64,000 bases of DNA from an uncultured Coriobacteriaceae bacterium (GTDB lineage: Bacteria > Actinomycetota > Coriobacteriia > Coriobacteriales > Coriobacteriaceae). Within the stretch, counting starts at the first letter, position 1. Each line of letters opens with the position of its first letter. The DNA is taken from NCBI GenBank assembly GCA_963931605.1, contig OZ007031.1, positions 913,332-977,331 of the forward strand. The letters run 5' to 3'. The position numbers and the translations under genes are program-made. The notes under the pieces are model-generated. The model did no database searches and was not told the origin of the DNA. It saw only the letters and a list, made by a program, of their open reading frames with translations. Below, in pieces: positions 2,829-38,415 of the stretch.

Positions 2829-3440
2829 CGGTTGGTCGCGCTTTCGACAGCCGTCGCAGGGGCCGCGCGCTTTTCTCGGCAGGTGCGGCCGCGGTTAGCC
2901 GCGTTTCCGACGTCGCCGCAGGGGCTGCATGTTCTTCTCGGCAGGTGCGAGGGGCTCGTCAGGCCGCGCCGCCGACGCCGCCACAAAACGCCTGCTTTTC
3001 TCAGCAGACGCAAGGCGCAGTACCCATTTTCGCAACGACCCCTGATGCGGCGCGTTTTTCTCGACAGGTGCGGATCGCGCTAACCGCGTTTCCGACGTCG
3101 CCGCAGGGGCCGCGCGTTTTTCCCGGCAGGTGCGAGGGGCTCGCGGCGTTTCCCCAGGAAACGCGTTAGGGCCTGCGCGCTTTTCTCGGCAGGCGCAAAA
3201 CGGGCGCGCCTTGCGTGGGCGCGCCACCTCCCCCGCTCCCGCATCTGTCGAGAAGAACCTGCCGAGAAGGCCCCGGGACGGCTCCGCGCCCTGCGACTGC
3301 CGAGAAGAACGCGCGGGCCGGCAGCCGCCGCCCCAACCCGCTCTGCACCTGCCGAGAGGAACCCGCAGAAACCGGCTCAAAACCCTCATCCTCGCTGCAT
3401 CTGTCGAGAAAAACGTACGGTGTCGCAACCGCGGCCAAAA
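2829..3440. repeat. mirror repeat block A: six ~62-bp units carrying TTTTCTCGGCAGGTGC, then four to five ~52-bp units carrying the reverse complement
   Basis: Forward motif starts at 2871, 2932, 2996, 3055, 3117, 3181. Reverse motif starts at 3241, (3259), 3293, 3345, 3397. Confidence 0.85.
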
Positions 3441-3615
3441 CGCGCGGGACGGCTCGTAGCTCACCGGGATCCAAGAGCGCAAGTGACGGTCGTTGACAAG
3501 CGTTATGATCCTTGCAATATCAAACGCATGTTCTTTTTATGGGGTGAATCGTGGTATGATGAGCTTGCGAGCGGGCGGTGCCCTCCGAGTCTAGCAGGTA
3601 GTGAGGAGGGATCCC

Positions 3616-3699
3616 GTGATCGTGAAGCTCACCGAGCTCGTTCGGGCGCTTGTTGCCCTTGTAGCTCTCATTATTATCCTGATGCTCTTGGTCAGGTAA
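3616..3699 (+). CDS. candidate small hydrophobic peptide, 27 aa (MIVKLTELVRALVALVALIIILMLLVR, GTG start)
   Basis: GAGGAGGG RBS lies 5 nt upstream of the GTG. An extended -10-like TGGTATGAT sits at 3552-3560. The patch is lower in G+C by eye. No homology evidence is available. Confidence 0.3.
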   Translation: MIVKLTELVRALVALVALIIILMLLVR

Positions 3700-3703
3700 A
3701 ATC

Positions 3704-5039
3704 GGGGTTATAGGACAAAAAGTGTGTATGGGCTAGTCCCAGTCCATACGGTATGGCTCGGAGCGATGCAGCTCTGACCACACTATGGCATCTCCCCACT
3801 GAGGAATGGTTCCTTGTAGCTTGTCCTGCTGATTGAGTCTCTCGTATATAGCTCTGATAGAGCCGTCCGTCGGCATGGCACGCAGGATCTCCGCTGCAGG
3901 CAAGGGGCTCGGGCTGTGCATACAGCACCACCAGAAGATCGCCTTGAGCCTGCGTTCGATAGAAAGTCCCCTATGGTCCCTGAGCATGGCTCTGAGCTGC
4001 GCGTTGGTGCCGCCTTCGATACGGTTGTTGGTGGCCGGGAGAGGGGCGAGGTGCTCTAGGCGGGGATCAAGGTAGGTGAACAGCGTCCCGGTGTTGATGA
4101 GCCGGGCGAGAGACCTCCGCGCCTTGACGAGGCGTTCATGCGCGAGGACGCACCTTCCCTCTTCCGTCTTCGTCCTCTCCGATAGGAAGTCGTCCCACCT
4201 CTCGGACCACGCAAGGAATGCCTCCGCCCACCCCTGCGCCTCTTTAAGGGTGGTGATGCCGAGCAGCGCTTTGGCAAGGCCGTACAGCTCTGCGCCCGCC
4301 TGCGTGCGGGGCTTCGAGGTGGTGTAGCGCTTGACCTGGGAGAATGCGTGGAAGATGCAGCGCTGGTGGTGCGCACGGGGCCATGTCTTCCCGAGCGCCT
4401 TCGGAAAGCCGTCGCCCCCGTCCGAGACGACCACCTCGGGGGCGGCTATGCGCTGCATCAAGGCCGACCAGCCGCGGCTGTTCTCCGCACGGCATAGGTG
4501 CCATCCCAGTACATGGCGCTCATCCGAGGCGATGAGCACGACGGCCTTTCTTCCGAGGTGTATGCCGTCAACGTAGATGACGCTTCGCGGCTCCTCTATC
4601 TTGGGCGGCATGGGCCATATATCCCAGAAGGGCGCGCACTTCCTTCTGAAGGTCCTGCCGGCCCCCGGCATATCTGATTGACGTTTGCGGGACAAAAGCC
4701 ACGCCAGGAAGGTTCTAAGGTCCTTGGCAGAGGTGTCGATCCTCCTCACCGAGCTCGAGCCGCAGCACCTACATCTGAAGCGAGTCCTGCCAGCTTTCGT
4801 TTTCCCGTTCTTAACCATATTGGAGCCGCAAACAGGGCAGCGGGGATTTCCCACGGCAACCTCGCAGATAGGCCAACTTCACTGTTAGAAACAACATGGT
4901 CTACCTGCGAGGATATGAAATTCTATACACACCTTTTGTCCAGGCAAAAGTTGGGACGATGCAACTCGAAGAGGCAATTTATAGGTATCTACCTGCAGTG
5001 ATACAGGAATCCCATACACACTTTTTGTCCTATAAGCCC
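3704..5039 (-). mobile_element. IS1249-like (IS256 superfamily) insertion sequence, ~1.34 kb
   Basis: Terminal inverted repeats GGGGTTATAGGACAAAAAGTGTGTATGGG (3704-3732) and CCCATACACACTTTTTGTCCTATAAGCCC (5011-5039) match at 28/29. They enclose a single transposase ORF. Confidence 0.85.
3733..4854 (-). CDS. IS1249-family transposase, 373 aa
   Basis: N-terminal zinc-finger CPVCGS...RFRCRCCG. The mutator/IS256-like core includes VIYVDGIHLGRK, VVSDGGDGF and HHQRCIFH. Confidence 0.88.
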   Translation of the reverse strand: MGNPRCPVCGSNMVKNGKTKAGRTRFRCRCCGSSSVRRIDTSAKDLRTFLAWLLSRKRQSDMPGAGRTFRRKCAPFWDIWPMPPKIEEPRSVIYVDGIHLGRKAVVLIASDERHVLGWHLCRAENSRGWSALMQRIAAPEVVVSDGGDGFPKALGKTWPRAHHQRCIFHAFSQVKRYTTSKPRTQAGAELYGLAKALLGITTLKEAQGWAEAFLAWSERWDDFLSERTKTEEGRCVLAHERLVKARRSLARLINTGTLFTYLDPRLEHLAPLPATNNRIEGGTNAQLRAMLRDHRGLSIERRLKAIFWWCCMHSPSPLPAAEILRAMPTDGSIRAIYERLNQQDKLQGTIPQWGDAIVWSELHRSEPYRMDWD

Positions 5040-5101
5040 AAACCGCTCCAAAACCACATACAAGCTTCATGGAGCCATGACGAGGCTGATGCCCTGAAAC
5101 G

Positions 5102-5134
5102 AAAAACAGCCCAGACGAGCCATATCGTCTGGGC
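5102..5134 (-). terminator. rho-independent terminator downstream of tRNA-Thr
   Basis: On the minus strand: GCCCAGACGA-tatggc-TCGTCTGGGC followed by tgTTTTT. Confidence 0.75.
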
Positions 5135-5147
5135 CGTTGCTCTGCCA

Positions 5148-5223
5148 TGGAGCCAGCAACGAGACTCGAACTCGTGACCCCCGCTTTACGAGAGCGGTGC
5201 TCTACCAACTGAGCTATGCTGGC
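5148..5223 (-). tRNA. tRNA-Thr (anticodon CGU), 76 nt with encoded CCA
   Basis: Cloverleaf folded by hand. Acceptor GCCAGCA/TGCTGGC, D arm GCTC/GAGC, anticodon stem CCGCT/AGCGG with loop CTCGTAA, T arm ACGAG/CTCGT with TTCGAGT loop. Confidence 0.9.
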
Positions 5224-5378
5224 TTGCGGGACGGTGTAACCGTGCCGGCAAGTAGATATAGTACGGCTTCAGCGGCCGAGGCGCAAGATGCAATTCGCGG
5301 GATTCTCGCCTTCACAGAGTGTCCCGAAACTGCGGACACCCTTTGGCGGCGCCTGCCATACGCGGCGTCCGCCTTAAG

Positions 5379-5843
5379 CTACGCGCGAACCTTGAAGCAG
5401 ACTTTCTTCACCTGCTGCGGGCCGTCGCCCGGGAACTCCAGCGTGGGCATGTGCGGCTCCCCCACCACAAAGATCGCGAAATGCCCTTCGTCCAGGTTGC
5501 CGTCAAGCGAGCGCTCGGCATCTACCAGCTCGAAGTCGCCCGCCTCGTCGTATGTCTGCACCAGCGTAGTGGCACCCGCCGCAGTCTTGAACGCCTCGCG
5601 GCCGATAAGGTCGATCTGCACGTCCATGTAGTCGCGGTGCGTCTCGTGGTGCGCGTCCTCGGGCTTGCGCGTGGTAGCCTCCATCACGTTGGCGTACACG
5701 TCGTCGCCGGCAATCTCGTTGCGGCCGAGCGGCAGGGCCGCCAGCTCTTCCGCGCTCTTGTTGGCTAGCCAGTCGATAAGCACGTCGAGATTGGGGTACA
5801 GGCCGCGGTACCTGCCGATATGGGAGAGCTCGTCGTAGATCAT
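5379..5843 (-). CDS. YhcH/YjgK/YiaL-family (DUF386) protein, 154 aa
   Basis: Family-typical layout: MIYDELSHIGRYRGL..., HRDYMDVQIDLIGRE, GHFAIFVVGEPHMP. Start is ATG 5843; the upstream part of the track ORF lies in repeat block B. Confidence 0.75.
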   Translation of the reverse strand: MIYDELSHIGRYRGLYPNLDVLIDWLANKSAEELAALPLGRNEIAGDDVYANVMEATTRKPEDAHHETHRDYMDVQIDLIGREAFKTAAGATTLVQTYDEAGDFELVDAERSLDGNLDEGHFAIFVVGEPHMPTLEFPGDGPQQVKKVCFKVRA

Positions 5844-6009
5844 GGCAACGCCTTTCGTGAAGCGGATGCGCGCGATGCGCCTTGTCGGTTCCATCATACC
5901 CGGATGCGCCGTGCGAACCAACCCGGCGCGGAGTTTGGGCGGTTCGGGTGGTGAGGGGCGGCTGTCCTGCGCTTGGATGCCAGCAGTGCGGGTAACCGCC
6001 GGGACCGGC

Positions 6010-6700
6010 GGCGCATCTGCCGAGAAAAATGCGCAGACTTTTTCAGCCGGCAATGCTTTCGCGACCAAAGGACTTTGCATCTAACGAGAAAAACGCGCGG
6101 GCTTCGTGAGTGGTGACGTTTTCGCAACCAAGCAGGGCATTCGATGTCGGAAGTGCGACCAACCGTCAGCGCCGGTAACGTACCTGCCGAGAAGAATGCG
6201 CGGGCCTCTCGGACGATGACGCTTTCGCGACCAAGCGGGACGATAGGTGTCGGAACCGCGGACAACCGAGTGAGACGAGTTCGGTTGGTCGCTGTTCCGA
6301 CATGGCCGATGTAGTTAGTCGCCCGAACCGCATCTAAATCCCGGAAATCCGGGAGTTGCGTGCGGCCCGGGCGACCAAGCGGAAGTTAGCGGTCGGATAT
6401 GCGACCAACCGGGAGCCTAGATGTCGCACTAACGGGCAAGTAGGAGCTTCGATGTCGCAACCGCGGGCAACTTATGCTTAGACGCCGGAAAGGTGACCAA
6501 CCGCCGGGGGCCACCGGTGCACCTGCCGAGAGAAATGCGCGAACTTCTCGGCCGATGACGCTTTCGCGACCAAGCGGGGCGATAGACGCCGCAAACGAGA
6601 GCAACTGCCAACGCCGGCGGCGTACCTGGCGAGAGTAATGTGCCCGCAGAGGGCGCGAGGCAGGAAGCTACCCCTCAGCCGCTGGCGCACCCGGCGAGAG
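6010..6700. repeat. repeat block B: GCAYCTGCCGAGAARAAYGCGC and GCGACCAAC/GGTTGGTCGC units around a palindromic core
   Basis: First motif starts at 6013, 6077, 6180, 6519, 6622, 6687. GCTTTCGCGACCAAGCGGG-type units lie at about 6054, 6117, 6219 and 6559. Dyad TCCCGGAAATCCGGGA is at 6339-6354. Confidence 0.8.
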
Positions 6701-13027: not shown

Positions 13028-13076
13028 GCGGGCGAGAAGCGCGCGGCGCTTGCGGGGCGAGGTTCTTCTCGCCCGC
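13028..13076. repeat. hairpin with 12-bp stem GCGGGCGAGAAG / CTTCTCGCCCGC
   Basis: Arms at 13028-13039 and 13065-13076. It carries the GGGCGAGAAG word also used in block C and in the palindromic elements. Confidence 0.7.
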
Positions 13077-13133
13077 GGGCTGCAGCCTGTCGGGGCCGCA
13101 ACTCCGCGCGCTTGGGCCGCGATCCCGTTCGCT

Positions 13134-13202
13134 GGGCCGGGGGCGATAAGGTTCCGAAATCCGATATCGGACGGATTTCGGGTTCTTATCGCCCCCGGCC
13201 CC
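13134..13202. repeat. ~70-bp palindromic intergenic element (copy 1 of 3)
   Basis: GGGCCGGGGGCGATAAGGTTCCGAAATCCG - atatcgga - CGGATTTCGGGTTCTTATCGCCCCCGGCCCC. It belongs to the same family as 41344-41415 and 44281-44348. Confidence 0.8.
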
Positions 13203-13239
13203 TTGGGGCAGCTGCCCCGCCGGAGTCGAGATGTTCCCC

Positions 13240-15089: not shown

Positions 15090-16106
15090 TTAGAAGAACG
15101 TGTCCGTGGAGTTGAGCGCGGAGTGGTCGAGACCGTCGGCGCCGGTTGAGGAGGTGCCCGCAGCGTCCGTGTCCGCGGAAGAGCCGCCCGCGGCGCCGGT
15201 GCCCTCATCGCTCTCGGCGTCTGAGCTCAGCGCTGCGTCCTCGTCGTCGCTCTCCTCGGAGATCACCACGCCGGCAACCTCCATGCCCGAAAGGTCGGTC
15301 GGCAGGTCGCCGAACCACGCGGTGCGCACCGCGTCGAGCACGCCGTTGGACGCGAGGGTGGAAAGCGCGCCGGAAACCGCCTCGGCAAGCTCCGCGTTGC
15401 CCGCGGCGACCGCCGCCACAACCTCGGACGGCGCGCCAAGCGTGCCGACAAGCGCCACGTCGTCGTAGGCGCGGGTGAGGTAGCCGCCCGCGCTGGCGTT
15501 GCACACGGCGTAGTCAACCTGGCCGGACTCCAGCGCCGACAGGCACTCGTTCACGTTGGAGCAGCTCATCTCGGTGTAGGTGACGTTTGAGCGCTCGAGC
15601 TGCTGCTGGGAGGCCGAGCCGTCCTGCACGGCGATGCGCGCGCCCGAGAGGCTCTCGGCCGAGACCTCGGCGCCAGCCTCGCCGGTCGTCCGCGCGAACA
15701 CGCCCATGGCCTCGGTGAAGACGGAGCCGGTGGAGACGGTGTCGTCGGGAAGGGCGTCGGCCTCGGCGCCGAGGTACACGTCGGCCGTGCCTTCGGCAAC
15801 GTCAGAGGGCGAGGCGTTCATCACCGAAGCGGAGAGTCCCAGCTCGGAGGCAAGGGCACGGGCAACGTCGGCCGTGTAGCCCGACGGGTTGCCCTCGGCG
15901 TCGAGCATGCCCATGGGAGCGGACGCCGTGTTCACCGCGACGGTGAGCGTGTCGGGCTCGACCAGCGCCGCAGAAGAGACCTGCGCGGTGCGCGGCTGGG
16001 AGGTTTTCTCGGAAAGGGGCGGCGTGGAAAGCGCGCAGGCGCTGAGCCCAACCAGCGCGAGCACCGCGCAGCACCCGGCGACAAAGCACGCGACCCAACG
16101 TTTCAT
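15090..16106 (-). CDS. lipoprotein, family-3 (amino-acid type) ABC substrate-binding protein with acidic low-complexity C-terminus, 338 aa
   Basis: Signal peptide plus lipobox LVGLSAC. An SBP_bac_3-like core is present (DTLTVAVNTASAPMGM, NPSGYTADVARAL, IAVQDGSASQ). GGAGG RBS before ATG 16106. Confidence 0.75.
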   Translation of the reverse strand: MKRWVACFVAGCCAVLALVGLSACALSTPPLSEKTSQPRTAQVSSAALVEPDTLTVAVNTASAPMGMLDAEGNPSGYTADVARALASELGLSASVMNASPSDVAEGTADVYLGAEADALPDDTVSTGSVFTEAMGVFARTTGEAGAEVSAESLSGARIAVQDGSASQQQLERSNVTYTEMSCSNVNECLSALESGQVDYAVCNASAGGYLTRAYDDVALVGTLGAPSEVVAAVAAGNAELAEAVSGALSTLASNGVLDAVRTAWFGDLPTDLSGMEVAGVVISEESDDEDAALSSDAESDEGTGAAGGSSADTDAAGTSSTGADGLDHSALNSTDTFF

Positions 16107-16544
16107 GGAGCCTCCCCCTCGTTGCAAGCTATATGGTTCCCCCCAGCTGACCTGGTCTTTGCCCCCACACTTGCGCACCGGGGCGTTTGCTCGGGCCGCC
16201 GCGGCGGCCTTCACGACTAACCCGCTCGCCCGCGGGGCAACGTGCCCCAGAGGTGGTATACGGACGGTGCGACTTACTCCTAGGACGCGCCATGATCGCG
16301 CGGCGCGCACGCCGTCGCTTACGTGGACCCTTTCGGCCGCGTCTGCCTTGGGATTGAACAGGCCTCGCGCAAGGGAGCGCGCCAACGGGCACCGTACCCG
16401 CGTGCGTGCGTCTTGCACCTATTCGCAACCACAGACCTGGGAGGAACGTGCGGCAGTATAACAAGAAGAAGCCTAACCGTAAACCTGAACTTGAATGTTT
16501 TGGACAAACGAACAGAGAGGCCGCGTCAGCCGACATGCCGACGC

Positions 16545-17165
16545 GGTGCAAGCGGGCGAAAAGGGGTGTTCACGCAGGGGCGCGCGGGCGAGAAGGGTGT
16601 TCATGCAGGGGGCGCGCGGGCGAGAAGGGTGCTCGTATGAGAGCGCGCGGGCGAAAAGAGCGTTCATACGAAAAGCGTGGGCGAGAAGAACGAGGCGCAT
16701 GGGCGAAAGGAGCGTTCATACGAGCGCTGTGGGCGACAATTGCGTTCATACGACAAGCGTGGGCGAAAAGGACGTTCGTACGGACGCGGTTTTGTCGGCT
16801 AAGCCTTCGCACGGTATTTTTATACCGCAATGCGACCAGCTAGCGGGGAGGCGCATGCCGTAGTGCCGCCCCTACGGGCAACTCCAGTCGTATGATTGCT
16901 TTTCTCGCCCATGCCTGTCGTATGAGTGTTGTTTTCGCCCATACCCGTCGTATGAATGCCTTTTTCGCCCACGCGGTTCGTATGGACGTTGTTTTCGCCC
17001 GGCAGGTCCGTACGAATGGTGATTTCGCCCACGAAGCTCGTATAAGTGCTGTTTTCGCCTGCTTGGTTCGTATGAGCCGTTATTGTCGCCCGCGTGGTTC
17101 GCATGGATGATGATATCGCCCACGGAACTTGCCACGAGGCTCGCACGCACGCTCTTTTCGCCTGG
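16545..17165. repeat. mirror repeat block C: 8 + 8 units of ~30 bp (GGGCGAAAA-N6-TCATACG-N8 and its reverse complement)
   Basis: Left units start at 16554, 16586, 16618, 16649, 16679, 16701, 16731, 16761. Right units start at 16889, 16919, 16949, 16979, 17009, 17039, 17069, 17100. Confidence 0.9.
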
Positions 17166-17398
17166 AAGCGTCCGCTCCCCCGCCCCGCGCGCGCAGCAAA
17201 TGCTGCCGCACGCTCTCTACCTGGAGCTGTCGTATAAACGCAACAGGTGCCCCCGCGGAGAAACGCTCGGTCGCCTCCAGCCTGCCCGTACGGGTGAGAA
17301 CGACGGCACCCCATAGGCGTTTTGCGCATATCGGCAGCGCGCGCACCGGGCCGAACGCACCGCAGCTATACTGAACGCATCCTCCTCCCGCGTCCCGC

Positions 17399-18343: not shown

Positions 18344-19909
18344 CTACTCGGGTAGCACGATCGTGAACACCGTGTGCTCGGCGTCGGACGCGCACGAGAT
18401 GGTGCCGCCGTGCGCAGTGACGATCTCCTTGGCGATGGCCAGGCCCAGCCCCGCGCCGCCGCGGTTGGTGGCGCGCGCCGCGTCCAGACGGTAGAACTTC
18501 TCGAAGATCACGTCCAGCTTGGCCTTAGGGATGGGATCGCCTTGGTTCTCGAAGCGGATCACGCAGCTGTGGTCCTCGGCGCGCTTCTCGGCCTCAACGC
18601 GGATGGCGGTGCCCTCGTAGCTGTAGGCGATGGCGTTTTTCATCACGTTGTTGAACACGCGGGCCATCTTGTCGCCGTCGACCAGCACGGTGAGCCCCAG
18701 CGGCACGGACAGCTCCACGGTCTTGCGCTGCTCGGCGAGGGTGGGATAGAACTCTTCGGCCACCTGGGCGAGCATGAGGTTCAGGTCGACGTAACCGCGC
18801 GTGAGCACGATGTCGTGGAAGTCGAAGCGCGTGATGTCGAAGAACTCCTCGATAAGCGCGTCCAAGCGGTGCGCTTTGTCCAGCGCGATGCCCGTGAAGC
18901 GCACGCGCTGCTCGGCCGGCAGGTCGGGCGCCTCGTTGAGCAGCGAGAGGTAGCCCACCACGCTTGCCAGCGGCGTCTTGAGGTCGTGCGCGAGGTAGGT
19001 CACCAAGTCGTCCTTGCGGCGCGACTCGTCGCGCAGCGCCTGCTCGCTCATGCGCTCGCGCGCGCGGACGCGGTTGAGGGCGGCCTCGACCTCCAAGAAG
19101 TCGCTGTCCAGGTCGCCCCAGTCGTTCGGGTTCTCGATGAGGCGACTCACCAGGTGCTCGGCAATGGCGGAGTCGGCCTCGGCCTGGCCGGCGGCAACGC
19201 CGCGGCGGTACATGTCGCGCGCGAGGAAGAACAACCCGCACACCGCCAGGCACACCACGAAGCCCAAGAACACGAACACCCAGCGAATGTCAAGGTAGAC
19301 GAGGGGAAACGCCGAGTAGATCATGCCGCCGGCGAGCATGGTGAGCCCCCAGGCGGTCCCGCCGATGATGACGGCGTGGCGCACGTCGATGAAGCGGTCG
19401 ATCAGCACGTAACCGCCGAACAGCACCGCCACCAGCAACAGGAAGCTCTCGCTCAGAAGCGTGAACGTCAAAACGAGCAGCACGACAAAGGCGGCCAGGC
19501 GGCTGTTGAACAGCGTGCGCAGCCAGTCCGGAGCGGCGGCACGGCCAGGGCCGGCAGCGCGGTGAAGTGGCGCGGCGGCGGCATCGGGCGCATAGCCGTC
19601 GGACGACGCAGGCGAGAAGGGTGCGCCCGCGGCTCCGGCGCCCGCCGCATGTGAGGACGCGCCTGTGGCAGCGTTTGCCGAGCGAGCTGACGGGGCGGCG
19701 GAAGATGCCGGGGAGCCGGCCGTCGCGCGGCCGCCGTAGCTGGTGCTCTTATCCCCCGCCGCATACGCCCGCACCTCGATGGTGCGCGCAGGATCGGCAG
19801 GGTCGGGCGAGCCGGGCGCGTTCGGCCGACCGGTCAGCGGGTTCACCGGCGTGCGCAGCGGATCCGTCTGCTGCACGGCATCCCATACATGCGGCTTTCT
19901 GATCTTCAC
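18344..19909 (-). CDS. sensor histidine kinase, VanS-like, with ~130-aa Ala/Pro/Gly-rich N-terminal extension, 521 aa
   Basis: H-box YLAHDLKTPLASVVGYLSLL, N-box ARVFNNVMKNAIAYS, G-boxes RATNRGGAGLGLAIAKEI. As I recall it, the block order closely resembles enterococcal VanS. GTG start with AAGGAG 6 nt upstream. Confidence 0.88.
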   Translation of the reverse strand: MKIRKPHVWDAVQQTDPLRTPVNPLTGRPNAPGSPDPADPARTIEVRAYAAGDKSTSYGGRATAGSPASSAAPSARSANAATGASSHAAGAGAAGAPFSPASSDGYAPDAAAAPLHRAAGPGRAAAPDWLRTLFNSRLAAFVVLLVLTFTLLSESFLLLVAVLFGGYVLIDRFIDVRHAVIIGGTAWGLTMLAGGMIYSAFPLVYLDIRWVFVFLGFVVCLAVCGLFFLARDMYRRGVAAGQAEADSAIAEHLVSRLIENPNDWGDLDSDFLEVEAALNRVRARERMSEQALRDESRRKDDLVTYLAHDLKTPLASVVGYLSLLNEAPDLPAEQRVRFTGIALDKAHRLDALIEEFFDITRFDFHDIVLTRGYVDLNLMLAQVAEEFYPTLAEQRKTVELSVPLGLTVLVDGDKMARVFNNVMKNAIAYSYEGTAIRVEAEKRAEDHSCVIRFENQGDPIPKAKLDVIFEKFYRLDAARATNRGGAGLGLAIAKEIVTAHGGTISCASDAEHTVFTIVLPE

Positions 19910-20009: not shown

Positions 20010-20430
20010 GGCGCGCGCCTGCCGGTTGCCCGCGGAAACTACGACCAGGGCAGGCGGCTCCTTCGGTTGCCCGCGGAAAAGTCGCGCAAGCTTTTGGTCG
20101 GTTGCGAGAACATCGATCAGGCCCTCGGCTGGTCGCGAAAATGACGGCTAGAGCCGGTGGTCCCCCTTCGGCTGGTCGCGGAAGCGTCGTGCAGAACTTT
20201 GGTTGGTCGCCGTTTCGACATTGCCGGAACAGTTAGTCGCTCCCACGACAGCTAACTCCCAGAAATCCGGGAGTTGCATGCAGCCCGAACGACCAAACGG
20301 GATTTACCTGCGATTATCGCGATCAACCGGAGGCCTCGATGCCGTTAGCGCAACCAACTGGAGCTTGCGCGCCACCATCGCGGCCAACCGCAGCGCGAAC
20401 ACCGTTAGCGCGGCAAGCGCGAGCTGAATC
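20010..20430. repeat. mirror repeat block D between response-regulator and kinase genes: GGTTGGTCGC-type units, dyad core, then GCGACCAAC-type units
   Basis: Left units lie at about 20022, 20063, 20094, 20127, 20169, 20200, 20230. The dyad CTCCCAGAAATCCGGGAG is at 20255-20272. Right units lie at about 20285, 20315, 20344, 20367. Confidence 0.8.
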
Positions 20431-20436: not shown

Positions 20437-21135
20437 CTACCCCTCGATGGTGTAGCCGACGCCCCAGATGTTCTTGATGAAGCGCGGGTTCTGAGCGTCG
20501 TCACCCAGCTTCTCGCGCAGGTGGCGGATGTGCACCATCACCGTGTTGTTGGAGCTCGGCAGAAACTCCTCTTTCCACACCGCGCGGAACAGGTCCTCCA
20601 CCGCCACCACCTTGCCGCGGTTGTCGGCCAGGTACAGCAGGATCGCGTACTCCAGCGGCGTGAGGCGCACGGGCTTCTCGTCCACGGTGACCTGGCGCGA
20701 GTCGCGGTTGATGGTCAGCCCGTCGATGGAGATGACCGCCGCGTCCTCGCCGTTGGCCCGGTTGCCGTAGCTGGTGTAGCGCCTGAGCTGCGCTTTTACG
20801 CGCGCCACAAGCTCGAGCGGGCGGAAGGGCTTCACCACGTAGTCGTCTGCGCCAAGTGACAGTCCCTCGATCTTGTCGGTCTGGGAGTCGCGCGCGGTGA
20901 GCATGATGACAGGATAGGTGTGGTCGGCGCGGATGGAGCGCAGGAGCTCGAAGCCATCAATGTCGGGCAGCATCACGTCGAGAACCGCCAGGTCGAACTC
21001 TTGGGCGAGAATCTCGCGCAGAGCGTCGGCGCCGGTGTAGGCAAGCGTCACGGCATAGCCCTCGTTTTTGAGGTAGATGCCCACCAGGTCGGTAATGGCC
21101 TTCTCGTCGTCGACCACCAGGATACGCGTTTCCAT
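20437..21135 (-). CDS. OmpR/PhoB-type response regulator, VanR-like, 232 aa
   Basis: Receiver motifs LVVDDE, LAVLDVMLPDIDG and VVKPF. Winged-helix C-terminus LTPLEYAILLYL, VMVHIRHLREKL, GVGYTIE. Confidence 0.92.
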   Translation of the reverse strand: METRILVVDDEKAITDLVGIYLKNEGYAVTLAYTGADALREILAQEFDLAVLDVMLPDIDGFELLRSIRADHTYPVIMLTARDSQTDKIEGLSLGADDYVVKPFRPLELVARVKAQLRRYTSYGNRANGEDAAVISIDGLTINRDSRQVTVDEKPVRLTPLEYAILLYLADNRGKVVAVEDLFRAVWKEEFLPSSNNTVMVHIRHLREKLGDDAQNPRFIKNIWGVGYTIEG

Positions 21136-27139: not shown

Positions 27140-27265
27140 CGCGAGCCCGCAGATGGAGAGGCGATCCGACTTGTTCCGCAGCGCACCGCGGAAGTTACGG
27201 TTACTGGTATAGCCGGGGACTTGCACCCCGATTCCCCTGAGCAGCCGCCGGCTCCCCGGCCGCGC
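27140..27265 (-). promoter_or_regulatory. probable cobalamin (B12) riboswitch aptamer in the leader of the DUF4430-ecfT-ecfAA'S operon
   Basis: The minus strand reads AGGGGAATCGGGGTGCAAGTCCCCGGCTATACCAGTAACCGTAA...CCGCGGTGCGCTGCGG..AAGTCGGATCGCCTCTCC. This parallels the GGGAA-GGTG-AA-TCC / CCNGNAACNGTAA core and B12-box of RF00174 as I remember them. No covariance model was run. Confidence 0.6.
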
Positions 27266-27362: not shown

Positions 27363-27438
27363 GCCTGCCATTGGGGACGGGTACGGATGGCAGACGCCGT
27401 GCCGGGTCTGCCGTCCGTACCCGTCCCCAATGGCAGGC
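27363..27438 (-). terminator. long perfect hairpin (25-bp stem with nested 7-bp hairpin) after the activase operon
   Basis: GCCTGCCATTGGGGACGGGTACGGA ... TCCGTACCCGTCCCCAATGGCAGGC, about 40 nt after the stop at 27479. There is no clear U-tract, so terminator function is inferred. Confidence 0.5.
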
Positions 27439-34182: not shown

Positions 34183-34275
34183 GCCGCCTCCCTGTACGTT
34201 GCGTCGTCCCATACCGCCTGCCGCATGCGGGACGCAAGTGCCGCATCCGCCCCACGCGAAAGGTCGCGCATGCCT

Positions 34276-35490
34276 CTACGGGCGGTAGTTCTCCTTGTAA
34301 TCCTTGAAATAGCCGAGGTAGGTGTGCCACATGCGCAGCGTGCGGTTGAAACCGTTGTCGCCGCGCATGAACACGGGGTTCACCACCTCGCCCGCGCGCC
34401 ACAGCGCAAGTGCGTCCGCGCGGTTCTTGGGATCGGTCACGTAGCGTTTGATGACGCCCTTGGGCACCACGCTCCACAAGTGCGGCTTGCGCGGCGTCTC
34501 AAACGGCAGCTCGCAGCCGCGCACCCAATCCTCTACCAGGTACTTGGCAACGTTTAAGCCCGAACCCGTAACGTAGTAGTTGCTGCGGCCCTGGCGCGTG
34601 TTGAAGTCGAAGAACTTGAAGCGGCCGTCGCGCTGGTCGAACTTGACGTCGAAGTTGGCAAAGCCCACGTAACCCAGGTCCTCAAGCAGCTCCTTGATGC
34701 GCACCAGCTCGCCCAGCTCGGGCTCGGTGATGATGGCTGCGTGGTTGCCGCCGGCGTGCGGGGAGTGCTCCTCCAAAAGCACGTGGCCCAGGCACATCAT
34801 CTTGACCTTGCCGTTGCGGTCGGAGTACGTGGTGAGCACGCGCATGTACTCGTCGTTGCCCGGGATCATGTCTTGGATGATGAGGTCGCCGGAGTAGCCC
34901 GAGGCGTACACCTCGCCGATGACCCGCTCAAGCCGCGGACGGTCCTCGATGACGTACACCTTGAACTGGGTGTCAAACGGATGCGCCCAGTAGTCGATGC
35001 CGTCGGAGGGCTTGAGGATAACCGGGAAGGGGAAGTCAAGCGAGAAGTCCATCGGGGCGCCCTTCTTATACACGAAGGTGCCAGGACGTTCGATGGCGTG
35101 CTTGTCGCAGAAACGGTAGAACTCGTCCTTGCGCTGGAACGTGTCCATCATCTCGAAATCGATGTAGGGCGCGATCACGTTGGAGGGGTACGCGCCCTTG
35201 TGCTTGCTGGCCAGCGCCACGTAGTTGTCGCCGCAGCCAATGAGCAAGACTTTCTTGTCGGCGTGCGCCGCGGCGAAGGCGCTCACCGCAGCCACGAACT
35301 CGTCATCTTGGTCGATGTTCTCGTTGGGCGTGTACTCAACGATCTTGCTGCGGAAGCTCGGGCCGGTGTGGTACTTGCCGTACACGTAGGTCTTCACTTG
35401 GTACTGCTCGTAAAACGCGCGGGCCACGCTGTAAGAGTTGATGTCGCCGCCAAACACCAGCGGCACGAACTCGCGCTCGGTAAACTGCAT
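34276..35490 (-). CDS. ATP-grasp carboxylate-amine ligase (D-aspartate ligase-like, COG3919 type), 404 aa
   Basis: N-terminus FVPLVFGGDINSYSVARAFYEQY plus the ATP-grasp core (FPVILKPSDG, LIIQDMIPG, GFANFDVKFD). GGGGAG RBS before ATG 35490. Confidence 0.8.
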   Translation of the reverse strand: MQFTEREFVPLVFGGDINSYSVARAFYEQYQVKTYVYGKYHTGPSFRSKIVEYTPNENIDQDDEFVAAVSAFAAAHADKKVLLIGCGDNYVALASKHKGAYPSNVIAPYIDFEMMDTFQRKDEFYRFCDKHAIERPGTFVYKKGAPMDFSLDFPFPVILKPSDGIDYWAHPFDTQFKVYVIEDRPRLERVIGEVYASGYSGDLIIQDMIPGNDEYMRVLTTYSDRNGKVKMMCLGHVLLEEHSPHAGGNHAAIITEPELGELVRIKELLEDLGYVGFANFDVKFDQRDGRFKFFDFNTRQGRSNYYVTGSGLNVAKYLVEDWVRGCELPFETPRKPHLWSVVPKGVIKRYVTDPKNRADALALWRAGEVVNPVFMRGDNGFNRTLRMWHTYLGYFKDYKENYRP

Positions 35491-35693
35491 AGAGGCTCCC
35501 CCTGCATCGCGCAATGGCAATCGTCAGGCACCGAGAAGCGGCGCAGCCATCCGCAGCCGCCCGTCGGCGCATACGTGCCTTATGATAGCCCCTTGCGTGC
35601 GGGGGCCTGCGGTTTCCAACAGTTTTTCCGCATAGCCGCCTGCCGGCTGCGGGACGCAGGCGCAGCAGGGCGGCACGGCATGGGCGGCTGCGC

Positions 35694-36854
35694 CTAGATC
35701 CCCGCGGCTCGGATCGCCTCCACGGCGGCGCGCAGCCCCTCGGGCGGCAGCACGAGCGCCATGCGCACGTACCCCTCGCCGCTCGGGCCGAAGCTCGCGC
35801 CCGGGGTCACCACCACGCCGGCACGCTCCATGAGCTCCTCGCAAAACGCCAGGCTGTCGGTGCGGCCGCCGGGCAGCTTGGCCCACACGAACATGGTGCC
35901 GTGCGCGTTGGGCCGCTCCCAGCCGATGGCCTCCAGGCCGTCGCACAGCGCGTCGCGACGCTCCTGGTACAGCATCCGCTGGCGCTCCACGCCCTCGAGC
36001 GAACCGGTGAGCGCGGCGATGGCGGCCATCTGGATGGGATAGAACATTCCGAAGCTCATCTGCCCGCGCAGCTTGGCGAAAGCGGCCACCACGTCGGCGC
36101 GGCCCACCAGAAAGCCCACGCGCGCGCCGGTCACGTCAAACGACTTGGAGAGCGAGAAGAACTCCACGCCCTGCTCGAGCGCGCCCTCGTGCGCCAGGAA
36201 GCTGCCGCCGCGCTCGCCGTCGTAGATGATGTCGGAATAGGCGTTGTCGTGCACGATGAGAATGTCGTGTGCGCGCGCGAAGGCGATGATCTCCTCGTAC
36301 AGCCCAGGGGTGGCCACGCTGCCCACGGGGTTGGCCGGCAGCGACACGATCATGTACTTGGCGCGGTCGGCCACCTCGTCGGGGATGTCGGCCACGTGCG
36401 GCAGAAAGCCGTGCTCGGCGGTGAGCTTGTAGTAGTACGGCTTGGCCTTGGCGATAAAGGCGCCGCCCTGGAAGATGGGGTAGCACGGGTCGGGCACGAG
36501 CACCGTGTCGTCCTCGTCGAGCATCGCCAGCGCGAAGAGCCCCACGCCCTCCTGCGTGCCGTTCACGCTCGTCACCATGTCGGGCGTGATGCCCTCGACG
36601 CCGAAGCGGCGCGCGTAGTAGTCGCACACGGCCTGCTTGAGCTCGGGCAGGTCGCGCAGGGAGTACTTCCACATCTCGGGCTTGCGCGCCGCGTTGACGA
36701 GCGCGTCAACGATGTGCGGCGCCGGCGGGAAGTCGGGCGTGCCGACCGACAGGTTGTAGATCGTGCGCCCCTCGGCCTCCAGGGCCAGGCGCTTGTCGTT
36801 CAACGAAGCGAAGATCTCCTCGCCAAAGGCGTCCAAGCGTTTCGAGAACTGCAT
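35694..36854 (-). CDS. class I/II PLP-dependent aminotransferase, 386 aa
   Basis: Motifs PANPVGSV, VHDNAYSD and the PLP-lysine motif SLSKSFDVTGARVG. GGGGAG RBS before ATG 36854. Confidence 0.88.
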   Translation of the reverse strand: MQFSKRLDAFGEEIFASLNDKRLALEAEGRTIYNLSVGTPDFPPAPHIVDALVNAARKPEMWKYSLRDLPELKQAVCDYYARRFGVEGITPDMVTSVNGTQEGVGLFALAMLDEDDTVLVPDPCYPIFQGGAFIAKAKPYYYKLTAEHGFLPHVADIPDEVADRAKYMIVSLPANPVGSVATPGLYEEIIAFARAHDILIVHDNAYSDIIYDGERGGSFLAHEGALEQGVEFFSLSKSFDVTGARVGFLVGRADVVAAFAKLRGQMSFGMFYPIQMAAIAALTGSLEGVERQRMLYQERRDALCDGLEAIGWERPNAHGTMFVWAKLPGGRTDSLAFCEELMERAGVVVTPGASFGPSGEGYVRMALVLPPEGLRAAVEAIRAAGI

Positions 36855-36978
36855 GCGCTCCCCTCTCTTGTTGCGACGTTGCCGGCTGGCGAACCTGCCG
36901 GCCACGGGCCGCAACTGAAAAGGGCCCGTCGCGATGCGGCGAACCCTGCTGAACTCTCGCTTGGAAAGAGTATATACC

Positions 36979-37716
36979 TTAGGCCTCCGGGCAAAGGGAG
37001 AGCGCAGCCTCGTCGGCCACGATCGTAACATCCTGGTGGAACTGGAGGATGGAGGCGGGCAGCTGCGGGGTGACCGGGCCGTACACGGCGGCCTTGAGCG
37101 CCTCGGCCTTGTCAGCGCCGGAGACGACCACGAGGATCTTCTTGGCGCACATGATGGTGCCGATGCCCATGGTGTAGGCCTGGCGCGGCACGTCGTCGGC
37201 AGAGGCGAAGAAGCGCTTGTTGGCCTCGATAGTGCTCTCGGTCAGGTCGACGCAGTGGGTGGTGGCGGCGAAGTCGTCGGCCGGCTCGTTGAAGCCGATG
37301 TGGCCGTTGCGGCCGAGGCCCAGAAGCTGCAGGTCCATCCCGCCGAGCGCACGGACAGCGGCCTCGTAGGTGGCGCACTCGTCGTCAGCGTCGGGGTTCT
37401 CGCCGTTCGGCACGTGGGTGTTGGCCTTGTCGATGTTCACGTGGTCGAACAGGTTCTCGTTCATGAAGTAGTAGTAGCTCTGGTCGTTGGTGCGGGGCAG
37501 GCCGCGGTACTCGTCCAGGTTGTAGGTCACCACGTGTGAGAAGTCCACGTCGCCGGCCTCGTTGGCGGCGATCAGGTTCTTGTAGGTGCCCACCGGCGAG
37601 GAGCCGGTAGCCAGGCCGAGCTTGCTCTCGGGGTTGAGAACGACCTGAGCAGCGATGATGTTGGCTGCCTTGCGGCTCATGTCGTCATAGTCGCGCACGC
37701 GGATGATCTTGATCAT
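36979..37716 (-). CDS. nagB: glucosamine-6-phosphate deaminase, 245 aa
   Basis: Motifs GLATGSSPVGTY, YNLDEY and LGLGRNGHIGFNEP. Confidence 0.92.
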   Translation of the reverse strand: MIKIIRVRDYDDMSRKAANIIAAQVVLNPESKLGLATGSSPVGTYKNLIAANEAGDVDFSHVVTYNLDEYRGLPRTNDQSYYYFMNENLFDHVNIDKANTHVPNGENPDADDECATYEAAVRALGGMDLQLLGLGRNGHIGFNEPADDFAATTHCVDLTESTIEANKRFFASADDVPRQAYTMGIGTIMCAKKILVVVSGADKAEALKAAVYGPVTPQLPASILQFHQDVTIVADEAALSLCPEA

Positions 37717-37964
37717 GATCCCTCTTTCTGCCTGGGAGCGTCTGCTCCGCCCTTAGCACCTGCAGTGTTAAGTATACGTGAATTGATGAAAACCAACTGG
37801 TTACTACCAGTTGAATTCGCAAACGGTCGAAATCTCCATGTGAGGGGTCTAAACGGCAACATGTTGGCGGAAAATGTACAGAAATACGCGGCGAACGGCT
37901 GAGGCACGGCGTGTCGCCGGTGGCAAGGGTGCCTGCGGTAACGGTGCGCGATTTCCACGGGTAG

Positions 37965-38415
37965 CGGCGCGCGTTTTTCTCGGCAGGTGCTACGGTGCGC
38001 ATATTTCTCTCGACAGGTACGGCAGTGCGCACGCTTCTCTCGACAGATGCAGTCTACCTGAGCCTTTTGGGCCCAACCCTGCGCACTCTTCTCGGCAGAT
38101 GCAAAACCGACATGCGGCGCACTCCCCCAACGCTTGCATCTGTCGAGAAAAACCGGGCGAAATCGTGCAGCAATCCCTGCCGACGTCGCACCTGCCGAGA
38201 AGAACATGCCAACGCACCGTCAGTGGCCCCAGCCCCCTCACACCTGTCGAGAAAAACCAGCGAAACAGCGCGGCATACGTTGTCGACGTTGCGTCTGCCG
38301 AGACAAACTAACCGACATATCGCCAGCGGCTTTAACCTTCCTGCACCTGCCGAGAAGAACGCTCAAGGGGCCCCGCACTCGCACAAGCGGACGCATCTGC
38401 CGGGAAGATCGCGCA
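37965..38415. repeat. mirror repeat block E: four TTYTCTCGRCAGRTGC units, then six reverse-complement units at a 52-bp phase
   Basis: Forward motif starts at 37974, 38004, 38035, 38087. Reverse motif starts at 38136, 38188, 38240, 38291, 38343, 38393. Confidence 0.85.

What the first reader, a model, noticed from the sequence alone, without database searches (positions are those of the whole stretch)
2829..38415. Five blocks share one grammar: a common word set, near-helical phasing and placement 5' of minus-strand genes
Blocks A-E total about 3 kb, roughly 5 percent of the window. They reuse a small word set: TTCTCGGCAG, GGTTGGTCGC, TTYCGACA and GGGCGAGAAG. Unit phases cluster at about 30-32, 50-52 and 59-64 bp, roughly 3, 5 and 6 turns of B-DNA. 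Four of the five blocks are internally mirror-symmetric. Each lies 90-450 bp upstream of a minus-strand start: glf 2737, the yhcH-like gene 5843, the SBP gene 16106, the kinase gene 19909 and nagB 37716. The GGGCGAGAAG word is also embedded in the ~70-bp palindromic elements and in the hairpin at 13028-13076. This links the arrays to the REP/MITE-like elements of this genome. It resembles the mosaic logic of enterobacterial BIMEs, but the units and scale differ. Placement upstream of minus-strand genes is partly expected because most genes here are on that strand.
Basis: inference. Interest (0 to 1): 0.7.

Follow-up and report, generated by a model that had tools for sequence, protein, structure and literature searches.

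The report
Phased two-armed repeat arrays between genes
Five unusually long gaps between genes in this uncultured Olsenella-like gut bacterium are filled with a lineage-restricted family of non-coding repeat arrays, whose short conserved cores sit whole helical turns apart in two facing arms; they come and go between sister species, so they look like an unusual kind of interspersed, probably mobile, repeat rather than gene switches.

Summary
Five intergenic blocks (about 2.8 kb) are built from three unit families: F1 core GCAYCTGYCGAGAARAAC, F2 GGTTGGTCGCG, F3 GGGCGAAAA-N6-TTCATACGA. Units form two inverted arms around a short hairpin.

Two claims are overstated. Block C shares only the architecture, not the words. 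GGGCGAGAAG is equally common in a sister species that has no arrays.

New findings:
- Core-to-core distances fall only at about 2, 3, 4, 5, 6, 7 and 10 helical turns (period about 10.4 bp).
- The 52-bp units keep their length while their spacers are at random-level identity.
- Single arms have no excess secondary structure, so the units are not REP hairpins.
- Sister species 1 lacks arrays at four of the five orthologous sites; the fifth site is not conserved.
- Sister species 2 has the same architecture (61-63-bp arm, centre, 52-bp arm) with variant cores at two sites. One of these is empty in the window. The other, the RR|HK gap, carries a different family in the window.
- Strains differ by unit-sized indels.

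Best reading: a genus-restricted interspersed mosaic or foldback-like element whose cores are phased protein-binding sites. It is not a cis-regulator of the neighbouring genes. The binding protein and the means of spread are unknown. I class it as a new variant of a known kind, of moderate interest.

The parts
2828..3196 (-). Block A, L-arm. Six 60-63-bp compound units, each an F2-like word (GGTTRGYCGCG-TTYCGAC) followed by an F1 core. The core sense GCAYCTGYCGAGAA is on the minus strand.
   Evidence: A three-unit (185-bp) internal duplication is 85% identical (D13).
3197..3240 (.). Block A centre, with the GC-rich hairpin GGCGCGCC-N7-GGCGCGCC. It is partly shared with the centre of block E (GCAAAAC...CAC.CCCCC).
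3241..3430 (+). Block A, R-arm. Four F1 units at exactly 52-bp spacing (anchors 3249, 3301, 3353, 3405), plus one extra core at 3263.
5990..6700 (+). Block B. It has four F1 cores in direct orientation (6013, 6077, 6180, 6519) within compound F2+F1 units of 64-103 bp. It also holds a D-like mirrored F2 core region (6283-6600) around the hairpin at 6336-6357. The block starts directly after the stop codon of the upstream PNP-fusion gene (6701).
   Evidence: (D2, D9). Strains differ by a 64-bp unit indel and a remodelled tract of about 360 bp.
16552..16790 (+). Block C, L-arm. Eight F3 units (GGGCGAaAA-N6-TTCATACGA) at 30-32 bp spacing, with one 22-bp step.
16791..16884 (.). Block C centre, with the hairpin CGGTATTTTTATACCG (16812-16827).
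16885..17172 (-). Block C, R-arm. Nine F3 units in inverted orientation at 30-31 bp spacing, with one 42-bp step.
   Evidence: (D1). One strain has a 31-bp (one-unit) deletion.
20018..20253 (+). Block D, L-arm. Seven F2 units (cGGYTGGTCGCGrAA) at 30-31 or 41-43 bp spacing.
20254..20275 (.). Block D central hairpin AACTCCCAGAAATCCGGGAGTT. The surrounding 109 nt (20198-20306) are 79% identical to block B 6280-6388.
   Evidence: (D9).
20280..20425 (-). Block D, R-arm. Four F2 units in inverted orientation at 30-31 bp spacing. The arm ends about 12 bp from the response-regulator stop codon (20437).
37962..38110 (-). Block E, L-arm. Four F1 cores (anchors 37982, 38012, 38042, 38094) at spacings of 30, 30 and 52 bp.
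38111..38135 (.). Block E centre.
38136..38425 (+). Block E, R-arm. Six F1 units at spacings of 52, 52, 51, 52 and 50 bp. The outermost two units are remodelled between strains.
38458..38490 (-). Intrinsic terminator of glmM. Array E lies between this terminator and the conserved nagB operator and promoter (37793-37814 onward). This feature is flanking context, not part of the element.

Best explanation
The five blocks are copies of a genus-restricted family of non-coding interspersed mosaic elements in an uncultured Olsenella-like Atopobiaceae.

Anatomy. Each element has two inverted arms around a short central hairpin. Each arm is a direct array of units. A unit is a 20-24-bp asymmetric core plus a spacer that is free in sequence but fixed in length at a whole number of helical turns (about 3, 4, 5, 6 or 7 turns). 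The F1 type has a conserved asymmetric layout: one arm of 61-63-bp units, the other of 52-bp units.

Proposed mechanism. The element works on duplex DNA. The cores are recognition sites that place a sequence-specific protein repeatedly on one face of the helix, and the two arms face each other like the multi-site ends of a transposon or foldback element.

Behaviour. Elements settle in either orientation in dispensable intergenic DNA, between the upstream stop codon or terminator and the downstream promoter. They then grow, shrink and are remodelled by unit-scale unequal exchange. They are not cis-regulatory sites required by the neighbouring genes.

Shown: lineage restriction, gain and loss at orthologous sites, unit indels, conserved cores against random spacers of fixed length, helical quantisation, absence of unit hairpins, independence from gene orientation.

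Inferred: protein binding, the identity of the protein, and transposition as the mode of spread.
For: 1. Gain and loss at orthologous sites.
- Sister species 1 (85-88% nt identity in genes) has short gaps where the window has arrays: glmM-nagB 282 bp against 913, PNP-yhcH 117 against 857, comF-SBP 484 against about 1290, RR-HK 89 against 527.
- Promoter-proximal sequence is conserved across these species.
- A more distant relative has an 11-bp RR-HK gap.

2. Sister species 2 carries the same architecture with variant cores at other sites.
- L081, RR|HK gap: two units 63 bp apart, a centre, then three units 52 bp apart.
- L005, a convergent gap with no promoter: four units at 61, 61 and 63 bp, a centre, then two units at 52 bp. 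The window has no array at this site.
- The window carries a different family (F2) at RR|HK.
- Orientation relative to the flanking genes differs between copies.

3. Cores against spacers. Cores have 0.705 mean pairwise identity. The 28-nt spacers have 0.317 against a null of 0.287. Yet the period is 52 bp in 8 of 10 intervals, and 50-51 in the other two.

4. Helical quantisation. All 57 adjacent core distances fall in the classes 22, 30-32, 41-43, 50-52, 60-64, 72-73 and 103 bp (plus one of 339 bp that spans the D-like core of block B). The best period is 10.3-10.6 bp with R 0.85-0.89. For class representatives, R is 0.96 with p about 6e-4. Array windows are among the top 1% of the window for phased A/T tracts.

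5. Dynamics within the species. There are unit-sized indels of 64 bp and 31 bp. Register-shifted, remodelled patches raise apparent divergence to 3-7%, against a background of 0.6-1%.

6. Shared modules. A and E share a centre, and B and D share a 109-nt central module at 79% identity.

7. The closest described analogue, the NIME arrays of Neisseria, shows the same logic: a short conserved core, variable spacers, and arrays that change between strains. A proposed recombinase reads the core (PMC1797815).
Against: - No cognate protein was found. The only transposase in about 92 kb of this genome is an IS256/Mutator-family gene whose ends are unrelated to the cores.
- No target-site duplication or sharp element boundary could be defined.
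- No strain-level presence/absence of a whole array was seen.
- Exact-pattern scans of 185,579 species genomes, JGI metagenomes, IMG/VR and blastn against plasmids found no further copies. Spread is therefore documented in only two species.
- The arrays cluster within 36 kb and are absent from the adjoining 53 kb.
- Some distance classes may be sums of smaller ones (62 = 31 + 31), which weakens the independence assumed in the phasing test.
- Whole blocks also fold as long hairpins, so an RNA-level or cruciform role is not excluded.
Confidence: 0.5

Rival explanations
1. They are REP/BIME-type elements. The units would be REP sequences mobilised by a REP-associated tyrosine transposase (RAYT), clustered into BIME-like mosaics that act as terminators, mRNA stabilisers or gyrase sites.
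For: - They are extragenic, dispersed, mosaic and lineage-specific.
- An unrelated metagenome contig (L064) carries HUH/RAYT-like genes flanked by REPIN hairpins of sequence GGGGCGAAGCATCTGCCGAGAT. These share 13-14 nt with the F1 core.
Against: - Single arms fold no better than shuffled sequence, with z = +1.1, -0.6 and +0.3, so the units are not imperfect palindromes.
- Units within an arm are direct, not alternating.
- No RAYT gene lies in the roughly 92 kb of this genome examined.
- The L064 match is of the kind expected by chance in a scan of that size.
Confidence: 0.08
2. They are operator or enhancer arrays. A transcription factor would bind the phased cores to regulate the adjacent genes (glf, yhcH, the SBP gene, the kinase gene, nagB) as a regulon.
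For: - All five blocks lie upstream of genes.
- The phasing is typical of cooperative regulator binding.
- A response-regulator gene adjoins block D.
Against: - Sister species keep the same promoters and operators without arrays.
- One copy in sister species 2 lies in a convergent gap with no promoter.
- Orientation to the flanking gene varies, and the same RR|HK site carries different families in two species.
- The neighbouring genes have no functional coherence.
Confidence: 0.1
3. They act at the RNA level. Read-through transcripts of the two inverted arms would fold into a long imperfect hairpin that terminates, insulates or is processed, for example by RNase III.
For: - Whole blocks fold far better than shuffled sequence, with z = -3.2 to -9.3.
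- Arrays begin right after stop codons in B and D.
Against: - Quantisation of spacing at about 10.4 bp is a property of duplex DNA, not of RNA.
- Spacers are not complementary between arms, and the arm periods differ (62 against 52 bp), so only the cores can pair.
- Elements occur in both orientations.
- No Rfam family matches, even at E <= 1.
Confidence: 0.1
4. They are functionless minisatellites. Tandem duplications would drift neutrally, and the apparent cores would be residual similarity.
For: - They are lineage-specific and show unit-sized indels and higher-order duplications.
- They are absent from most relatives.
Against: - Spacers are at random-level identity, yet their length is fixed. 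Neutral decay should have added indels.
- Cores stay at 70% identity, and the same 52 and 61-63-bp layout recurs in a second species with diverged cores.
Confidence: 0.12
5. They are sequence-independent structural DNA. Phased A/T tracts in the cores would make intrinsically curved segments that organise the nucleoid or supercoiling without a dedicated binding protein.
For: - Every core family carries an A/T tract in a 67% G+C genome.
- Array windows rank in the top 1% of the window for A/T tracts phased at 10-10.8 bp.
Against: - Twenty or more conserved core positions extend beyond the A tract, which implies sequence-specific reading.
- There are few tracts per arm (3-14), so the predicted curvature is modest.
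- Block D shows weak phasing (R = 0.51).
Confidence: 0.08
6. They are degenerate orphan CRISPR-like arrays, with conserved repeats and unrelated spacers of constant length.
For: The 52-bp units consist of a core of about 22-24 nt plus a spacer of about 28-30 nt at random-level identity.
Against: - The 30-bp units leave only about 7 variable nucleotides.
- The arms are inverted, and the cores are degenerate at several positions.
- No cas genes are nearby.
- Spacers match nothing in the window, the related loci or the viral hits.
- The viral scans gave only chance-level single hits.
Confidence: 0.02

Closest known systems
Neisserial intergenic mosaic elements (NIMEs: dRS3 cores separated by RS spacers)
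   Same: - A short conserved core (20 bp) separates variable spacers of 19-214 bp in long intergenic arrays.
- The arrays are dynamic in repeat number between strains.
- The core is proposed to be the site of a recombinase.
(PMC1797815.)
   Different: - dRS3 has 6-bp terminal inverted repeats, whereas the cores here are asymmetric with no dyad.
- NIME spacers fall into sequence families of variable length. Here the spacers are unrelated in sequence but quantised in helical turns.
- NIMEs are not organised as two inverted arms.
- The host phylum is different.
Enterobacterial REP/BIME elements
   Same: Both are extragenic, dispersed, mosaic combinations of a few motif types, often found after genes.
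   Different: - REPs are imperfect palindromes in alternating orientation and are linked to RAYT.
- Here the units have no hairpin, run in direct orientation within an arm, are 30-63 bp long, and no RAYT was seen.
Foldback-type transposable elements of eukaryotes, whose long inverted termini are made of degenerate tandem sub-repeats around a central loop (from my own knowledge, not tested here)
   Same: - Two inverted arms built from tandem short repeats, with variable arm length and a short centre.
- Copies are dispersed and present or absent between close species.
   Different: - Foldback elements are eukaryotic.
- No transposase, target-site duplication or excision footprint has been shown here.
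- The arm units here differ between the arms (61-63 against 52 bp).
Multi-site transposon ends (Tn7 TnsB sites, Mu attL/attR) (from my own knowledge; a lead, not a test)
   Same: - Several asymmetric sites of about 22 bp sit in one orientation at one end and inverted at the other.
- The two ends have different site spacing.
   Different: - Those ends flank kilobases of cargo and carry 3-4 sites each.
- Here up to 9 sites per arm flank 25-160 bp.
- No related transposase was identified.
Mycobacterial interspersed repetitive units (MIRUs), e.g. in the senX3-regX3 intergenic region
   Same: Both are tandem units of about 50-60 bp in intergenic regions of an actinobacterial lineage, including the gap between the two genes of a two-component system (PMC7884335; block D).
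   Different: - MIRUs are direct tandem repeats that are similar across the whole unit, lie in one orientation to the operon, and are proposed to work through small overlapping ORFs.
- Here only the cores are conserved, the arms are inverted, and 52 and 62 bp are not multiples of three.
Plasmid iteron and centromere arrays (e.g. F sopC, R1 parC) (from my own knowledge)
   Same: Both are phased arrays of protein-binding repeats on one face of the helix, sometimes arranged in two groups.
   Different: - Those arrays lie on plasmids next to rep or par genes.
- These are chromosomal, occur at many loci, have no rep or par neighbours, and gave no plasmid match.

Membership tests
REP/BIME | Each unit is an imperfect palindrome (stem-loop). 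| tested here: not met
   Single arms fold no better than dinucleotide shuffles: E R-arm z = +1.13, A L-arm z = -0.59, C R-arm z = +0.29.
REP/BIME | Successive REPs alternate in orientation within a BIME. | tested here: not met
   Units are direct repeats within an arm, and orientation switches only once, at the centre.
REP/BIME | A cognate RAYT (Y1/HUH transposase) is present in the genome. | not testable with these tools
   Only about 92 kb of the 2.39-Mb genome could be read. The gene calls and Pfam labels covering about 88 kb of it (window 47,717-51,550 was not covered) show no Y1 transposase.
REP/BIME | Extragenic location, dispersed in many copies. | tested here: met
   There are five intergenic blocks in the window and two more in a sister species.
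MITE / foldback element | Terminal inverted repeats. | tested here: met
   The arms are inverted arrays of the same cores, and whole blocks fold as long hairpins with z = -3.2 to -9.3.
MITE / foldback element | Target-site duplication and defined ends at an insertion, compared with an empty site. | tested here: inconclusive
   Filled and empty sites were aligned for E, B, D and the L005 site. The flanks were too diverged or replaced, and no duplication was recognisable.
MITE / foldback element | Presence/absence polymorphism at orthologous sites. | tested here: met
   Arrays are absent in sister species 1 at four loci. One is present in sister species 2 where the window has none. Different families occupy RR|HK in the two species. 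No whole-array polymorphism was seen among conspecific strains.
MITE / foldback element | An autonomous partner element carries the same ends. | not testable with these tools
   The adjacent IS256-family element (3704-5039) has unrelated 29-nt ends. The rest of the genome could not be searched.
NIME | A 20-bp dRS3 core with 6-bp terminal inverted repeats (ATTCCC-N8-GGGAAT). | tested here: not met
   The core consensus sequences GCAYCTGYCGAGAARAAC, GGTTGGTCGCG and GGGCGAAAA-N6-TTCATACGA show no dyad by inspection and no sequence similarity to dRS3 (definition from PMC1797815).
NIME | Arrays of cores separated by variable spacers, and dynamic between strains. | tested here: met
CRISPR | Near-identical repeats, unique spacers, adjacent cas genes or a leader, and a single orientation. 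| tested here: not met
   Cores are 70% identical, the arms are inverted, 30-bp units exist, no cas genes lie in the flanking gene lists, and no spacer matches were found (gene lists).
MIRU-type minisatellite | Whole-unit similarity, one orientation relative to the operon, and units compatible with small overlapping ORFs. | tested here: not met
   Spacers are at random-level identity, the arms are inverted, and periods of 52 and 62 bp are not multiples of three.
Plasmid iteron or centromere array | Located on a replicon next to rep or par genes. | tested here: not met
   The arrays sit in a chromosomal context with ribosomal protein genes, glmM and a tRNA. There is no blastn match in 72,556 plasmids.

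The most novel reading that the evidence does not exclude
These may be a previously undescribed bacterial class of foldback-type mobile element, or alternatively a chromosomal nucleoprotein scaffold. Its two unequal arms are arrays of asymmetric protein-binding cores held at whole helical turns: six-turn units on one arm and five-turn units on the other, with 3-, 4- and 7-turn variants. An as yet unidentified recombinase or nucleoid protein would read the cores by polymerising along one face of the DNA.
Probability: 0.25. Interest if true: 0.7.

Novelty: new variant of a known kind. Interest (0 to 1): 0.5.

Why it matters
Interspersed intergenic repeats (REP/BIME, NIME, BOX, MIRU) are known in a few well-studied bacteria. 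How they spread, and why their cores persist, is still debated. This family comes from an uncultured gut Atopobiaceae and offers an unusually clean signal. The cores are conserved, the spacers are randomised, and the spacer length is held to integral helical turns. A two-armed layout with unequal arms is kept across two species while the locations turn over. That combination argues for a protein reading duplex DNA and gives concrete oligonucleotides for pull-down.

There are practical consequences as well. The arrays account for the largest intergenic gaps here, they mislead gene callers (a 251-aa ORF called inside one in L081), and they create local patches of apparently high strain divergence.

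Tried and rejected
- Known RNA families. Rfam at gathering threshold, and at E <= 1 over positions 1-40,000, gave nothing in any block. It found only the raiA RNA, tRNA-Thr and an AdoCbl riboswitch elsewhere.
- Promoter or terminator reading of the cores. Consensus scans showed no sigma-70-like sites in the arrays and no excess of terminator-like sites.
- Coding repeats. The 10-residue periodic translation of block C is an artefact: the upstream part reads as junk and public gene callers call no gene there.
- Nested-insertion model. This model predicts that concentric pairs of left and right units are the most similar. In block C there is no such concentric signal; neighbouring units on the same arm are the most alike.
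- CRISPR-like idea. Spacers have no matches.
- Phage or plasmid origin. Viral pattern scans gave only chance single hits. Blastn against plasmids found nothing.
- Wider distribution by exact two-core patterns. Scans of genome contigs and metagenome contigs returned coding repeats and unrelated tandem arrays. Such patterns would miss variant cores like those of sister species 2.
- Taxon naming through cluster members. No names were returned. The closest named glmM homologues are Olsenella species at 83-85% identity.
- Literature. A search for the words themselves found only primer-type hits. No paper was found on such arrays in Coriobacteriia.

Full report
CONTEXT

The window has 67% G+C. It is 100% identical to part of a 2.39-Mb metagenome-assembled contig, ERZ21564551 s19629.ctg024876c. 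The closest named homologues of its GlmM are Olsenella species at 83-85% identity. A raiA RNA motif is present. The organism is therefore an uncultured Atopobiaceae (Coriobacteriia).

- glf, 1580-2737, minus strand
- a YhcH/DUF386 gene, 5379-5843, minus
- an SBP_bac_3 gene, 15090-16106, minus, preceded by the raiA RNA at 16138-16445
- a histidine kinase, 18344-19909, minus
- an OmpR-type response regulator, 20437-21135, minus
- nagB, 36979-37716, minus

CHECKING THE OBSERVATION

TTCTCGGCAG (<=1 mismatch) occurs 33 times against 5.6 expected, and 24 copies lie in blocks A, B and E. GGTTGGTCGC occurs 15 times against 8.6 expected, but 13 of the 15 lie in A, B and D. TTYCGACA is marginal.

GGGCGAGAAG is strongly over-represented against shuffles, 61 against 8.6. 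This over-representation is not tied to the arrays:
- Eight of its 18 exact copies are ordinary coding sequence, typically Gly-Glu-Lys codon contexts.
- The word is as frequent in sister-species DNA that has no arrays, at 7-12 per 10 kb.
- In that sister species it also forms terminator-like hairpins after genes.

The blocks fill the five largest intergenic gaps of the window. They are 12-40 times more internally repetitive than shuffled sequence. They are reproduced in SPAdes, hifiasm and other assemblies from different samples, so they are real.

ANATOMY

There are three unit families.
- F1 has a core of about 22 nt, tGCAyCTGyCGAGAArAAC..GC. It occurs as 52-bp units (A right arm, E right arm), as 60-63-bp compound units that also carry an F2-like word (A left arm), and as 30-bp units (E left arm).
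- F2 has the core cGGyTGGTCGCGrAA. It occurs at 30-31 or 41-43 bp spacing (D, B).
- F3 has the core GGGCGAaAA-N6-TTCaTaCGa. It occurs at 30-32 bp spacing (C only).

A, C, D and E each consist of two arms of direct repeats that face each other across a short centre containing a hairpin. B has a D-like mirrored core (6283-6600) inside a direct array of compound units. A and E share parts of their centre, and B and D share a 109-nt central module at 79% identity.

Block C shares no word with the other blocks.

THE UNITS ARE NOT REP-LIKE

Single arms folded as DNA are no more stable than dinucleotide shuffles, with z = +1.13, -0.59 and +0.29. Whole blocks do fold as long imperfect hairpins, with z = -3.2 to -9.3. 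This is the trivial consequence of the inverted arms.

CORES AGAINST SPACERS

For thirteen 52-bp units (ten from the window, three from a sister species):
- The cores have 0.705 mean pairwise identity.
- The 28-nt spacers have 0.317, against a shuffle null of 0.287.
- The period is 52 bp in eight of ten intervals, and 50-51 bp in the other two.

Randomised sequence at fixed length is not what neutral decay of tandem duplicates gives, because indels would accumulate. It is not what concerted evolution gives either, because spacers would be homogenised.

HELICAL QUANTISATION

All 57 adjacent same-strand core distances, across the three families, fall into the classes 22, 30-32, 41-43, 50-52, 60-64, 72-73 and 103 bp (plus one of 339 bp that spans the D-like core of block B). 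None falls between classes. The Rayleigh resultant is 0.85-0.89 at periods of 10.3-10.6 bp. For class representatives it is 0.96 at 10.35 bp, with p about 6e-4 against random classes.

There is a caveat. Some classes may be sums of smaller ones, so they are not fully independent.

Every core carries an A/T tract. Array windows rank in the top 1% of the window for A/T tracts phased at 10-10.8 bp.

COMPARATIVE EVIDENCE

Conspecific strains (98-99% identity) all carry the five arrays, but the arrays differ between them:
- a 64-bp unit indel in B and a 31-bp unit indel in C
- register-shifted, remodelled patches that raise apparent divergence to 2.9% (A), 7% (B) and 7% (E), against 0.6-1% elsewhere
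- D and C stay at background divergence

Sister species 1 (85-88% nt identity in genes, syntenic) lacks the arrays:
- glmM-nagB gap 282 bp, against 913 in the window
- PNP-yhcH gap 117 bp, against 857
- comF-SBP gap 484 bp, against about 1290
- RR-HK gap 89 bp, against 527

The promoter-proximal sequences, the NagR-like operator and the raiA RNA are all conserved in that species. A more distant relative has an 11-bp RR-HK gap.

Sister species 2 lacks arrays at the nagB and SBP loci but has them at two other sites.
- In the RR|HK gap (L081): two TTCTCG-sense units 63 bp apart, an AT-rich centre, then three CGAGAA-sense units 52 bp apart, with the variant core GCGCAWGGCGAGAA.
- In a convergent gap between an aminotransferase-HTH gene and a helicase gene (L005): four units at 61, 61 and 63 bp, a centre, then two inverted units 52 bp apart, with the variant core CGAGTAAC. 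The window has only a palindromic element at this site.

Four F1-type elements in two species thus share the layout of a 61-63-bp arm, a centre and a 52-bp arm. They lie in either orientation to the flanking genes. One lies where there is no promoter at all. One locus carries different families in the two species.

No arrays occur in the 8.4 kb before the window, the 10 kb after it, or the last 25 kb of the window.

INTERPRETATION

The neighbouring genes do not need the arrays, and the arrays do not respect gene orientation, so a cis-regulatory role for those genes is unlikely.

The arrays behave as a genus-restricted family of interspersed mosaic elements. They occupy dispensable DNA between a stop codon or terminator and the next promoter, and they are gained, lost and remodelled.

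Three features are best explained by a sequence-specific protein that lines up on one face of the helix: conserved asymmetric cores, spacing fixed in whole helical turns, and two unequal facing arms. This resembles the multi-site ends of some transposons and the sub-repeat arms of foldback elements. That resemblance rests on my own knowledge and was not tested.

The closest described bacterial analogue is the neisserial NIME array: a 20-bp dRS3 core, variable RS spacers, arrays that change between strains, and a proposed recombinase (PMC1797815). An amusing parallel is the MIRU array in the mycobacterial senX3-regX3 gap (PMC7884335).

Membership of REP/BIME, NIME, CRISPR, MIRU and iteron or centromere arrays fails on defining features that were tested (see the membership table).

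What remains inferred: that a protein binds the cores, which protein it is, and whether spread is by transposition or by recombination. No target-site duplication or autonomous partner was found. The adjacent IS256-family element has unrelated ends.

LIMITS

- Only about 92 kb of the genome, plus about 150 kb from relatives, could be read.
- The collection scans used exact patterns. They would miss variant cores, as the sister-species copies show.
- All look-up and scan quotas for cellular genomes were exhausted.

VERDICT

The REP link is not supported. The family is a new variant of the known kind 'interspersed intergenic mosaic repeats', with an unusual and testable helical-phase signature.

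Noticed in passing
window 3704-5039: An IS256/Mutator-family insertion sequence lies between tRNA-Thr and block A. Its transposase ORF is at 3733-4854 (minus strand), and its 29-nt terminal inverted repeats are 97% complementary. The ends are unrelated to the array cores.
   Followed up: partly
window ~3480-3700: An AT-rich, promoter-like stretch is followed by a 27-residue hydrophobic ORF (VIVKLTELVRALVALVALIIILMLLVR, about 3617-3700, plus strand). It could be a small membrane peptide or a type I toxin-like gene. Window positions 3555-3700 are missing in strains L018-L021.
   Followed up: partly
window 16138-16445 (-): A raiA-motif RNA (127 bits) lies directly upstream of an amino-acid SBP gene. 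It is conserved in the same position in the sister species.
   Followed up: partly
window 27159-27238 (-) and 27363-27438: An AdoCbl-II riboswitch aptamer scores just above its gathering threshold. Next to it is a 33-nt inverted repeat with 97% complementarity.
   Followed up: no
window 13125-13209, 41337-41421, 44272-44356; 41448-41487 / 44354-44393: There is a family of palindromic elements of about 75-85 nt with the core GGAACCCGAAATCTG...CAGATTTCGGAACC. A 40-nt inverted pair brackets the DEAD-box/DUF3516 helicase gene at 41292-44243.
   Followed up: no
window 44399-48079 vs L002 1-3681: This segment is 97% identical to the sister-species contig, whereas neighbouring genes are 85-88% identical. 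This suggests a recent exchange between the species.
   Followed up: no
window 37796-37813: A palindromic NagR/DasR-like operator, AACTGGTAGTAACCAGTT, lies upstream of nagB and is conserved in the relatives. nagB's next-closest homologues are from Lachnospiraceae at 72-76% identity.
   Followed up: partly
L053 120-720: An unrelated metagenome contig (59% G+C) carries twelve 52-bp tandem units, each with a GAGAGACG...CGTCTCTC hairpin. They lie upstream of a luciferase-like monooxygenase gene and share TCTCGGCAGGTGC with the F1 core.
   Followed up: no
L064 1-1000: An unrelated metagenome contig carries HUH (RAYT-like) transposase genes flanked by REPIN hairpins of sequence GGGGCGAAGCATCTGCCGAGAT. 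These share 13-14 nt with the F1 core, probably by chance.
   Followed up: no
L081 6415-7170 (-): The public annotation calls a 251-residue ORF with no Pfam hit that lies almost entirely within the sister-species repeat array (its 3' end overlaps the RR gene by about 19 bp). It is probably spurious.
   Followed up: partly
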